A stretch of 64,000 nt of DNA from a virus (lineage: Duplodnaviria; Heunggongvirae; Uroviricota; Caudoviricetes): the IMG/VR virus record IMGVR_UViG_3300032007_000013. One strand, written 5' to 3'. Shown here piece after piece: positions 15,207-16,448 of this stretch (position 1 is the first letter of the stretch; the number at the start of each line of letters is the position of its first letter). The notes below the pieces were generated by a model. It was not told where the DNA came from and ran no database searches. It was given only the letters and a program-made list of their open reading frames with translations. The translations under genes were made by a program, and so were the position numbers.

Positions 15207-16448
15207 ATGATTTATAATATTGACGATAAATTACCATTTAATAAGTTAATAATGTTTTCAGTTTAGTTAGTTTTGTCGGTTTTTGTAGCAACTTGTTTAA
15301 TTGCTAATATCTGTGGCGTAGCAGTATCAGGAGCCTTAGTAGGAGCTGGATTATCAACAATAGTTTATTTGATAGCTACAAAGTTTAAATCTCCAATGTT
15401 TGTTTCGAGTTCAGGAGCCTTTGTAGCACCAGTAATGGCAGCTCTTGCGGCAGGCGGATATACTGCTGTCGCAATCGGTGGTTTAATTACTTGTGTCGTT
15501 TATTCTATTTTTGGAATTATATTTACAAAAATTCCAGTAGAAAAAATATATAAAGTATTCCCGCCGGCCCTAATTGGTGCGGTCACTGTAGTTATTGGTG
15601 TTAATCTTATGCCTTTTATCCTTACATATGTTTAGGTTAATGGAGTAACAAATATGTGGGGTGTAAGTGCGGCATTAATTACTATGTTGGCTATTGCTCT
15701 TATTTCACATTATGCTAAGGGTATTTGGCAAATACTTCCATTTTTACTTGGCACATTAATTGGTTATGTATATGCGATTATTCTTACTGTAACTGGTATA
15801 TATAAAATTGTTGATTTTAGTGTTTTTGCTAATTTAAAATTGTTTAATATTCCAGACTTCGCATTTTTACATTGGACTTCCGTAGATTGGACGGCAATTC
15901 TCCCAGTTATAATTATGTATATTGCCTTTACAATTTCTGCTATGATGGAATGTTTAAGTGATCATGCCGCATTAGGAGGTATTATCGGTGTTGATTTATA
16001 CAAAGACCCTGGACTTGGCCGACTCTTCATTGGTGAAGGACTTGCTAATATAGTCGGTACTTCAATTGGCGGATTAGGAATATGTTCTTATGGCGAAGGA
16101 GTAGCCTGTGTTGGATTTAGTAAAGTTGCCTCCACGCTTGTCACCTGTACAGCTGCCATTATCCTTATCCTCCTCGGCTTCTTAGCCCCAATTCAAGCAT
16201 TTATCGCTAGTATCCCAAGCTGTGTATTCGCAGGAGCCGCAATAATCCTTTATGGTTTCATTGCCTGTTCCGGCATTAAGATGTTATAGAAAACTGATTT
16301 AAATATTCAAAAGAATTTAGTCATCGTTTCTACTGTATTATCTCTTGGTATTAGCGGATTAGTAGTGGGCGGAACTACAATTAGTTTGAGTGCTACTGGA
16401 CTTGCTCTTGTAGTTGGTGTAATCTTAAATCTTCTTTTGAAAGAATAA
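15207..16448 (+). CDS. nucleobase:cation symporter-2 (NCS2) family permease (uracil/xanthine permease-like), 413 aa, 3 in-frame TAG
   Basis: About 12 TM segments. The characteristic Gly/Ala-rich stretches (GGLITCVVYSIFG, GEGLANIVGTSIGG) are what I recognise as NCS2-like. ORFs 15273-15635 and 15654-16289 are in the same frame and joined by TAG. RBS AAGGAGTG. Confidence 0.7.

What the first reader, a model, noticed from the sequence alone, without database searches (positions are those of the whole stretch)
15207..16448. Phage-encoded NCS2 nucleobase permease (auxiliary metabolic gene)
This is a 413-aa, ~12-TM protein with hallmark uracil/xanthine permease motifs. It is flanked by its own terminators and has only 3 TAG. 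Nucleobase import would feed nucleotide salvage during replication of an AT-rich genome. I have rarely seen it reported in phages.
Basis: partly seen in the sequence, partly recalled or inferred. Interest (0 to 1): 0.55.

Follow-up and report, generated by a model that had tools for sequence, protein, structure and literature searches.

The report
Phage-encoded nucleobase permease, amber-recoded
A roughly 241-kb gut or rumen phage that reads the TAG stop codon as glutamine carries an intact, strongly conserved nucleobase importer of the uracil-permease family, and in most related phages this gene sits directly beside a base-swapping salvage enzyme, which suggests these viruses scavenge free DNA bases from outside the cell.

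Summary
Window 15207-16448 (+) is a 413-codon ORF ending in TAA, with three in-frame TAG codons. Each TAG aligns to an invariant Gln in homologues. The window also encodes a tRNA with anticodon CTA. Read with TAG as Gln, the protein is a full-length NCS2/NAT permease (Pfam PF00860, 169 bits). Its best solved relative is UraA, and the substrate-binding Glu residues are kept.

It is not a recent host pick-up. It belongs to a phage-specific clade.
- 49 loci carry it at 64-95% identity, many on 100-240 kb viral contigs, and more than 100 metagenomic proteins are at least 85% identical.
- dN/dS is 0.05-0.15.
- The nearest named cellular homologues are only 34-36% identical.

In most relatives the gene lies in a nucleotide-metabolism module (PolIII-alpha, Gmk, NrdD, NrdG, nucleoside 2-deoxyribosyltransferase, permease, dUTPase, RuvC). 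It is often translationally coupled to the deoxyribosyltransferase. In this genome it has been displaced to just after the holin gene, but it keeps its own conserved promoter and leader.

The most likely function is proton-coupled import of a nucleobase for phage nucleotide salvage. The substrate is unproven, and the clade has pocket changes (UraA F73 to Gly, H242 to Cys, N291 to Gly).

This is a new member of a known kind, of moderate interest.

The parts
15207..16448 (+). NCS2/NAT-family nucleobase permease CDS. 413 aa, TAA stop, in-frame TAG (read as Gln) codons 20, 143 and 361 at 15264-66, 15633-35 and 16287-89.
   Evidence: The translation shows the ORF and its three TAG codons. It matches PF00860 at 168.8 bits over the full length. 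UraA is the best solved relative. The TAG columns are invariant Gln in alignment A1 and are CAA or CAG in relatives' DNA. dN/dS is 0.05-0.15.
14953..14981 (+). Sigma-70-like promoter of the permease unit: TTGACT, 17-nt spacer, TAAACT, with TG upstream of the -10 element.
   Evidence: The consensus scan finds it. The element is conserved in L006, L007, L009 and L008, whose upstream flanks are unrelated. Conservation begins at the -35 hexamer.
15013..15162 (+). Leader small ORF. It is a frameshifted copy of a conserved 63-aa ORF. In relatives that ORF ends 1 nt before the permease ATG. The relatives' reading frame continues in the window to the TAA at 15203-15205.
   Evidence: Alignment A3 and the small-ORF extraction show it. 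The window and L001 carry one extra A after codon 19.
15189..15194 (+). Shine-Dalgarno-like AAGGAG, 12 nt upstream of the permease ATG.
   Evidence: It is read directly from the sequence. It is conserved in L006, L007 and L009.
16495..16537 (+). Intrinsic terminator after the permease. The hairpin is flanked by an A-run and a T-run, so it may work in both directions.
   Evidence: The RNA fold gives -24.7 kcal/mol, z = -9.8.
16548..16583 (-). Terminator of the convergent minus-strand genes (the tail-fibre block).
   Evidence: The scan finds it and the fold gives -23.3 kcal/mol.
14917..14948 (+). Terminator of the upstream holin gene. It marks the 5' boundary of the permease unit.
   Evidence: The scan finds it and the fold gives -19.8 kcal/mol.
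14503..14934 (+). Holin gene, a neighbour in this genome only.
   Evidence: It matches phrog_13712 (holin) at E = 5.5e-30. In relatives the holin is not adjacent to the permease.
2638..2707 (+). Suppressor tRNA with anticodon CTA, needed to translate the three TAG codons of the permease.
   Evidence: ARAGORN detects it. Its 5' half resembles the phage tRNA-Gln(CTG).

Best explanation
The gene encodes a functional, phage-encoded secondary transporter of the NCS2/NAT family (COG2233, uracil-permease-like branch).

Proposed mechanism:
1. It is transcribed from its own host-type promoter.
2. It is translated only when the phage amber-suppressor tRNA(CTA) inserts Gln at three TAG codons, including codon 20 in the conserved TM1 Gln.
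3. It inserts into the host membrane and imports a free nucleobase with protons. A pyrimidine such as uracil or thymine is most likely, but this is unproven.
4. The base feeds phage nucleotide salvage. In most related phages the permease gene directly follows, and is often translationally coupled to, a nucleoside 2-deoxyribosyltransferase. It also sits with NrdD/NrdG, guanylate kinase, dUTPase, a dNMP kinase and a 5'-deoxynucleotidase. The imported base is therefore probably swapped onto deoxyribose of host-derived deoxynucleosides and re-phosphorylated for phage DNA synthesis.

Shown: family membership, intactness under code 15, purifying selection, phage-clade distribution and gene linkage. 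Inferred: direction of transport, substrate and the metabolic route.
For: Family and active site.
- PF00860 scores 168.8 bits over the full length.
- The best NCBIfam model is uracil permease at 201 bits.
- UraA is the best solved relative at E = 8e-38. UapA is not found at E <= 1e-3.
- UraA residues Q23, E241, Y288, G289, E290 and Y342 are invariant in the phage sequences that cover those columns (46-49 of 49).

Recoding.
- A tRNA(CTA) is present.
- ORF coverage rises from 42.8 to 64.6 kb when TAG is read through.
- The permease TAG codons sit at invariant Gln columns that are CAA or CAG in relatives.

Selection and composition.
- dN/dS is 0.05-0.15.
- GC3 is 0.23, close to other phage genes.

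Distribution.
- More than 100 proteins are at least 85% identical.
- 47 IMG/VR loci carry a relative.
- The exact 211-aa fragment lies on a 241,184-bp contig.
- The nearest named cellular homologues are 34-36% identical.

Linkage.
- The conserved module is PolIII-alpha, Gmk, NrdD, NrdG, NDT, permease, dUTPase, RuvC.
- NDT lies within two genes of the permease in 33 of 49 permease-seeded loci.
- In an NDT-seeded sample, 32 of 38 loci with enough flank have the permease less than 1 kb downstream.
- The NDT stop overlaps the permease ATG in 8 loci.
- A formate/nitrite-family channel lies next to NrdD/NrdG in 4 loci.
- The promoter and leader are conserved across different upstream contexts.
Against: - There is no transport or expression data.
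- The score is below the NCBIfam trusted cutoffs for 'uracil permease' (201 vs 477) and even for TIGR00801 ncs2 (196.6 vs 291.8).
- The clade replaces UraA F73, H242, N291 and H24 with G, C/A, G and L/M, so the substrate may not be uracil.
- In this genome no NDT, NrdD or NrdG lies within the 64-kb window. The window's contig was not among the top 80 NDT hits, so the partner enzyme may be missing here.
- PF05014 also includes dNMP N-hydrolases, so the linked enzyme's reaction is uncertain.
- The structure model failed (pLDDT 35).
Confidence: 0.78

Rival explanations
1. The permease works with the linked PF05014 enzyme in a different direction or on a different substrate. It could export or recycle bases released by a dNMP/nucleoside N-glycosidase, or import a non-canonical or larger base (a purine or a modified pyrimidine) rather than scavenging uracil or thymine.
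For: The pocket substitutions (F73 to Gly, H242 to Cys/Ala, N291 to Gly) are fixed in the phage clades, while the sampled cellular relatives keep F, H and N/S. The NCBIfam equivalog cutoffs are not met. PF05014 covers both transferases and hydrolases (general knowledge of the family; the hit itself is).
Against: Characterised NCS2 members are proton-coupled importers (PMC6308229). The best-scoring models and the only solved close relative are uracil permeases. Both substrate-binding glutamates are kept.
Confidence: 0.14
2. It is a decaying pseudogene, or a captured host gene inactivated by three stop codons.
For: Under the standard code the ORF is broken into fragments. The leader small ORF is frameshifted in this genome.
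Against: All three TAG codons fall on invariant Gln columns. A suppressor tRNA is present, and 21 of 38 long ORFs carry TAG. dN/dS is about 0.05. There are no frameshifts or TAA/TGA stops in the 413 codons.
Confidence: 0.02
3. It is a membrane protein co-opted for lysis timing or superinfection exclusion, because it lies directly after the holin gene.
For: It is adjacent to a holin gene on the same strand. An early TAG codon delays its translation, as has been proposed for lysis genes in recoded phages (10.1101/2021.08.26.457843).
Against: The holin adjacency is unique to this genome. In relatives the gene lies in the nucleotide module. A terminator and a separate conserved promoter lie between the holin and the permease. 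The transport-site residues are invariant.
Confidence: 0.04
4. It is bacterial chromosomal DNA, or a mis-binned or mis-assembled host segment, rather than a phage gene.
For: One homologue lies on a contig binned into a Clostridia MAG. Some related loci (GC about 45%) carry an integrase.
Against: The window is TAG-recoded throughout and encodes a holin, an endolysin and a suppressor tRNA. The gene itself carries TAG codons. The homologues sit on IMG/VR contigs of 100-240 kb. Only 1 hit was found among the genomes of 185,579 species, and that search finds only close relatives.
Confidence: 0.02

Closest known systems
E. coli UraA uracil:H+ symporter (PDB 3QE7, 5XLS, 8OMZ), NCS2/NAT family
   Same: The alignment is full length (query 5-412 to UraA 8-407, E = 8e-38). 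By homology the fold has 14 transmembrane segments. Q23, E241, Y288, G289, E290 and Y342 are conserved.
   Different: Identity is only 28.7%. F73 is Gly, H242 is Cys, H245 is Asp, N291 is Gly and H24 is Leu. The score is below the NCBIfam uracil-permease equivalog cutoff. The gene is phage-encoded and amber-recoded.
Cellular 'uracil permease / uracil-xanthine permease family' proteins of Spirochaetaceae (MDR0638602.1), Acholeplasmataceae (NLL68667.1) and Christensenellaceae/Borkfalkiaceae (MDY2841730.1)
   Same: These are the closest named cellular homologues. They share Asp at the UraA H245 position and both glutamates.
   Different: They are 34-36% identical. They keep Phe, His and Asn/Ser at the pocket positions that are Gly, Cys and Gly in the phage clade.
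Putative uracil permease of Clostridium phage c-st / D-1873, and PHROG phrog_20031 (listed as 'unknown function')
   Same: Both are NCS2 homologues already present in phage records. The phrog_20031 hit has E = 5e-52.
   Different: The c-st protein is only about 24% identical. None of the 50,697 GenBank phage records holds a homologue above 35% identity. No link to nucleotide metabolism has been described for them.
Code-15 (TAG read as Gln) recoded gut phages (Borges et al., 10.1101/2021.08.26.457843; PMC9523058)
   Same: It shares a suppressor tRNA(CTA), in-frame TAG at Gln positions, a mix of recoded and unrecoded genes, and a large genome.
   Different: I could not assign the phage to a named clade. 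That preprint's main text does not mention a permease or transporter.
Other virus-encoded nutrient-uptake genes, such as cyanophage pstS and algal-virus ammonium or potassium transporters (from general knowledge, not tested here)
   Same: The concept is the same: a virus supplies its own uptake component to relieve a nutrient bottleneck during replication.
   Different: The protein family and the substrate differ. Here the transporter is operon-linked to a base-exchange enzyme.

Membership tests
NCS2/NAT nucleobase:cation symporter family (Pfam PF00860, TC 2.A.40) | Pfam PF00860 match above the gathering threshold across the whole domain | tested here: met
   The score is 168.8 bits against a cutoff of 27, covering residues 13-385 (profile positions 2-384 of 389).
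NCS2/NAT nucleobase:cation symporter family (Pfam PF00860, TC 2.A.40) | UraA-type fold with 14 transmembrane segments in a 7+7 inverted repeat | tested here: inconclusive
   The sequence aligns end to end with UraA, and hydrophobic segments span the whole protein. The AlphaFold model built from a shallow alignment was unusable (pLDDT 35).
NCS2/NAT nucleobase:cation symporter family (Pfam PF00860, TC 2.A.40) | Conserved substrate-binding acidic residues in TM8 (UraA E241) and TM10 (UraA E290), and the TM1 Gln | tested here: met
   E248 and E297 are invariant in all 49 phage sequences. Q20, which is encoded by TAG in the window, is Gln in all 46 sequences that cover the column.
NCS2/NAT nucleobase:cation symporter family (Pfam PF00860, TC 2.A.40) | NCBIfam TIGR00801 (ncs2 superfamily model) trusted cutoff | tested here: not met
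   The score is 196.6 bits against a cutoff of 291.8. The protein is a divergent member by this stricter model.
Uracil permease (UraA/PyrP equivalog, NCBIfam NF007995) | Equivalog score cutoff | tested here: not met
   The score is 201.1 bits against a cutoff of 477.
Uracil permease (UraA/PyrP equivalog, NCBIfam NF007995) | UraA pocket residues F73, H242, H245 and N291 | tested here: not met
   The window has G70, C249, D252 and G298 at these positions. H245 to Asp is shared with the cellular relatives. The other three changes are specific to the phage clade.
Uracil permease (UraA/PyrP equivalog, NCBIfam NF007995) | Demonstrated uracil:H+ symport | not testable with these tools
   This requires uptake assays.
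Phage auxiliary metabolic gene | Encoded inside a bona fide phage genome, between phage genes | tested here: met
   A holin lies upstream. An endolysin, PhoH and topoisomerase II are in the window. The window matches a 241-kb contig and the homologues lie on IMG/VR contigs.
Phage auxiliary metabolic gene | Intact and under purifying selection in the phage lineage | tested here: met
   dN/dS is 0.05-0.15, and the frame is intact under code 15.
Phage auxiliary metabolic gene | Expressed during infection and altering host metabolism | not testable with these tools
   There are no transcriptome or proteome data.
Genetic code 15 (TAG read as Gln) phage | In-frame TAG at Gln positions, a suppressor tRNA(CTA), and a gain in coding density when TAG is read through | tested here: met
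   All three features are met.

The most novel reading that the evidence does not exclude
Large gut and rumen phages carry a virus-specific 'base-swap' salvage operon. It consists of a phage-clade NCS2 permease with an enlarged pocket (Gly in place of UraA Phe73), translationally coupled to a nucleoside 2-deoxyribosyltransferase. In some lineages a formate channel also sits beside the formate-dependent class III ribonucleotide reductase. The phage would install its own importers in the host membrane. It would bring in free bases, possibly thymine, adenine or a non-canonical base, and exchange them onto deoxyribose from degraded host DNA. This would re-balance or modify the dNTP pool for an AT-rich genome.
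Probability: 0.2. Interest if true: 0.75.

Novelty: new member of a known kind. Interest (0 to 1): 0.5.

Why it matters
Phage auxiliary metabolic genes are mostly soluble enzymes. A conserved, virus-encoded secondary active importer would mean that some phages extend the uptake capacity of the infected cell to fuel genome replication.

The tight permease-deoxyribosyltransferase pairing gives a concrete, testable pathway. The formate channel next to NrdD/NrdG in some relatives fits the same pattern.

The gene is also a clean natural example for code-15 biology. The same Gln columns are TAG in some genomes and CAA or CAG in others. The early TAG at codon 20 makes synthesis of the transporter depend on the phage suppressor tRNA.

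The family is absent above 35% identity from 50,697 GenBank phage records, yet it is abundant in metagenomes. It is therefore an unannotated but common function: PHROGs lists its nearest family as 'unknown function'.

Tried and rejected
- Structure prediction from the 13-sequence alignment A1 gave pLDDT 35 and was discarded.
- An Rfam scan of the leader (14850-15300) found no riboswitch or attenuator. All hits were far below the gathering scores.
- Host inference from the nearest cellular NCS2 was rejected. No named cellular homologue exceeds about 36% identity.
- The species-representative genome scan gave a single hit, on a 9.9-kb contig of a Clostridia MAG. Its neighbours (NrdD, NrdG-like, dUTPase) match the phage module, so it is probably a mis-binned phage contig.
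- The idea that the PurA-like gene (48526-49854) is PurZ, implying a 2-aminoadenine genome, was rejected. The NCBIfam PurZ model scores 20.9 against a cutoff of 300, and the PDB hits are weak matches to entries named adenylosuccinate synthetase.
- The search for the partner NDT in the window's own genome was inconclusive. There is no homologue within the 64 kb, and the contig was not among the top 80 of 343 NDT hits.
- The 1642-aa neighbour has no Pfam or PHROG hit. Calling it 'tail fibre' rests on repeated GGTMTGxL-type motifs and on its position.
- Seven literature searches found no description of phage NCS2 or uracil permeases, and none in three papers on recoded or jumbo phages.
- The 3' flank of the gene is not conserved among relatives. 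Only the 5' promoter and leader travel with it.

Full report
**1. Observation**

Window 15207-16448 (+) translates as one 413-codon frame ending in TAA. It is interrupted only by three TAG codons, at codons 20, 143 and 361. Under the standard code the tools see fragments of 120 and 211 aa.

The window as a whole is amber-recoded.
- ARAGORN finds a tRNA with anticodon CTA at 2638-2707, next to tRNA-Gln(TTG) and tRNA-Gln(CTG). Its 5' half resembles the Gln(CTG) tRNA.
- Bases lying in long ORFs (at least 100 codons, summed over six frames) rise from 42.8 to 64.6 kb when TAG is read through.
- 21 of 38 long ORFs contain TAG, and TAG makes up 117 of 444 Gln-type codons.

In an alignment with 12 close homologues all three TAG positions are invariant Gln. 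At the DNA level those columns are CAA or CAG in relatives and TAG only in the closest recoded genomes. The gene is therefore intact under code 15.

**2. What the protein is**

With TAG read as Gln the protein matches several models and structures.
- Pfam PF00860 Xan_ur_permease: 168.8 bits, E = 2e-49, nearly the whole profile.
- NCBIfam models, best first: uracil permease 201 bits, TIGR00801 ncs2 197 bits, RutG 173 bits, pbuX 134 bits. All are below their curated cutoffs.
- Solved structures: UraA is the only close match (E = 8e-38, query 5-412 to UraA 8-407). SLC23A1 is weak, and UapA is not found at E <= 1e-3.

UraA has 14 transmembrane segments, with uracil held mainly by the invariant Glu241 (PMC4346270).

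I compared 49 phage homologues, other metagenomic groups and cellular representatives.
- UraA Q23, E241, Y288, G289, E290 and Y342 are invariant in the phage family.
- H245 is Asp, but the same is true in the cellular relatives.
- F73 to Gly, H242 to Cys/Ala, N291 to Gly and H24 to Leu/Met are fixed in the phage clades. The sampled cellular proteins keep Phe, His and Asn/Ser.

The transport machinery is conserved, but the pocket is altered. 'Nucleobase permease' is supported, while 'uracil permease' is only the nearest label.

**3. Phage context**

The genes around and beyond the permease are those of a large phage.
- Immediately upstream is a holin (phrog_13712, E = 5.5e-30).
- Further upstream are a dUTPase, a RuvC-like resolvase and a metallopeptidase-like gene.
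- Downstream, convergent, is a 1642-aa repetitive protein with 13 TAG codons.
- Elsewhere the window encodes an 819-aa endolysin with 16 TAG codons, PhoH, a topoisomerase II large subunit, an RNA ligase, a Thg1-like enzyme, RNase H, NADAR, a radical-SAM enzyme, two GT8 glycosyltransferases and a divergent PurA-like protein.

The exact 211-aa standard-code fragment of the permease lies on JGI contig Ga0256407_10000073 (241,184 bp). The window is identical to that contig over 20.6 kb, apart from one homopolymer base.

**4. Distribution and origin**

- The word-indexed protein search returned more than 100 clusters at 85-95% identity.
- A scan of IMG/VR found 47 loci, many on contigs of 100-240 kb. 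True protein identities to the window copy are 64-95% for 46 of them and 39% for one outlier, L052.
- These loci include TAG-recoded genomes (GC 28-40%) and standard-code genomes (GC 28-56%).
- Among 50,697 GenBank phage records nothing exceeds 35% identity.
- Among one genome for each of 185,579 species, only one 9.9-kb contig of a Clostridia MAG matched. Its neighbours are those of the phage module. This scan finds only close relatives.

An exhaustive HMMER search of 1.84 billion cluster representatives shows how isolated the family is. The family collapses into one 50%-identity cluster. The next groups are at 45-49% identity. One of these (P0166) again sits on phage-like contigs of up to about 167 kb that carry a GIY-YIG endonuclease, RNase H, DNA ligase, ClpP and PhoH. 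The first named cellular proteins, from Spirochaetaceae, Acholeplasmataceae and Christensenellaceae/Borkfalkiaceae, are 34-36% identical.

Pairwise dN/dS within the phage family is 0.05-0.15. GC3 of the gene (0.23) is close to that of other phage genes (0.15-0.20). This is an old, selected phage gene and not a recent host capture.

**5. Gene neighbourhood**

I clustered the ORFs of all loci and annotated the clusters with Pfam. This reveals a conserved module in this order:
- DNA polymerase III alpha
- guanylate kinase
- NrdD
- NrdG
- a small protein (c8)
- nucleoside 2-deoxyribosyltransferase (PF05014, 44 bits against a cutoff of 28.8)
- the permease
- c11, c14, c15
- dUTPase
- RuvC
- c12

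A dNMP kinase and an NT5C 5'-deoxynucleotidase lie nearby in some lineages.

The link between the deoxyribosyltransferase (NDT) and the permease is strong.
- NDT lies within two genes of the permease in 33 of 49 permease-seeded loci.
- In an independent NDT-seeded metagenome sample, 32 of 38 loci with at least 1.8 kb on both sides have the permease less than 1 kb downstream on the same strand.
- In eight loci the NDT stop overlaps the permease ATG.
- In four loci a formate/nitrite-family channel (PF01226, 80.6 bits) sits between NrdG and NDT. Formate is the known reductant of class III ribonucleotide reductase (general knowledge). This is a second case of a transporter placed beside the enzyme that would use its substrate.

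**6. This genome's arrangement**

The window contains the block from c11 through dUTPase, RuvC and c12 to the holin, at 8605-14934, in the same order as in L012. It has no NrdD, NrdG, PolIII-alpha, Gmk or NDT homologue. The permease sits after the holin rather than before c11.

The roughly 190 bp from the -35 hexamer to the permease start are conserved with L006, L007 and L009, and partly with L008, although the sequences further upstream are unrelated. Conservation begins exactly at a TTGACT-17-TAAACT promoter with an upstream TG (window 14953-14981). It continues through an RBS and a 63-aa small ORF that ends 1 nt before the permease ATG.

The window copy of that small ORF carries one extra A and is frameshifted after codon 19.

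The 3' flank is not conserved. In the window a strong terminator follows at 16495-16537.

The permease therefore travels with its own promoter and leader, and it has been retained through rearrangement.

**7. Mechanism**

The best-supported reading is that host RNA polymerase transcribes the unit from the sigma-70-like promoter. Translation past codon 20 needs the phage suppressor tRNA. The 14-TM protein inserts into the host membrane and imports a nucleobase with protons. The base then enters phage-directed salvage, most plausibly by deoxyribosyl transfer followed by phosphorylation.

Shown here: family, intactness, selection, clade distribution and linkage. Inferred: import direction (from the characterised family), substrate and pathway.

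Rivals are listed separately. The only one with appreciable weight is a different substrate or direction.

**8. Novelty**

The protein kind is well known. Phage records already contain distant NCS2 genes: the c-st 'uracil permease' at 24% identity, and phrog_20031, which is labelled 'unknown function'.

I found no paper describing a phage NCS2 permease or its linkage to deoxyribosyltransferase.

My verdict is a new member of a known kind, in an under-described viral context, of moderate interest.

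Noticed in passing
L024, L032, L033 and L051 (gene between NrdG and NDT, about 197-220 aa): Related phages encode a formate/nitrite transporter family protein (PF01226, 80.6 bits) next to the class III ribonucleotide reductase genes NrdD and NrdG. That enzyme uses formate as its reductant. This would be a second phage-encoded transporter placed beside the enzyme that consumes its substrate.
   Followed up: partly
window 15013-15205: A 63-aa small ORF (MYNILYYDLENFDLDEVKV...HW, with one in-frame TAG) lies between the promoter and the permease. It is conserved in L006, L007 and L009, with a divergent 70-aa counterpart in L002. In L006, L007 and L009 it ends 1 nt before the permease ATG. The window copy has one extra A and is frameshifted after codon 19. 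Its function is unknown.
   Followed up: partly
window 20648: The window and JGI contig Ga0256407_10000073 differ by a single A5/A4 homopolymer base inside the 1642-aa tail-fibre-like ORF. The window version keeps the frame open and the other breaks it. This could be an assembly error or phase-variable expression.
   Followed up: no
window 48526-49854: A divergent adenylosuccinate-synthetase-like protein (Pfam PF00709, 75 bits; phrog_1211). It is not PurZ by the NCBIfam model (20.9 against a cutoff of 300), and its role in this phage is unclear.
   Followed up: partly
window 37700-42000: A very AT-rich island (GC 0.20-0.23) carrying a radical-SAM enzyme and two GT8 glycosyltransferases, each with 4-10 TAG codons. 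It may be a surface or DNA glycosylation module.
   Followed up: no
window 6912-8411: A 499-aa DUF2828/DUF7788 protein with no TAG codon and GC3 of 0.41, about twice that of neighbouring genes. It may be a more recent acquisition.
   Followed up: no
window 2800-3528, 6147-6875, 27338-28324, 29677-30669 and 43594-44349: These are paralogous Cys-rich repeat proteins with a shared C-terminal 'FDFAIF...IEYDGxQH...IRIPY' domain. They are heavily TAG-recoded and scattered through the window. They look like homing-endonuclease-like selfish genes.
   Followed up: no
window 4819-4890: ARAGORN reports a tRNA with an unusual 4-base anticodon (tgtt) and undetermined identity, within the tRNA cluster near the suppressor tRNA.
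   Followed up: no
window 44687-46215: Four tandem paralogous genes of about 122-134 aa. Each has a central transmembrane stretch and a conserved C-terminal 'Y(E/K)V(V/T)MD...F(Y/I)DKY' motif. None has a TAG codon. The one tested (44687-45061) had no Pfam hit.
   Followed up: no
L108 compared with window 10423-14407: In L108 the block c20 to RuvC lies inverted, directly after NDT, and the permease is absent from that position. This shows recurrent inversions and rearrangements at this junction among related phages.
   Followed up: partly
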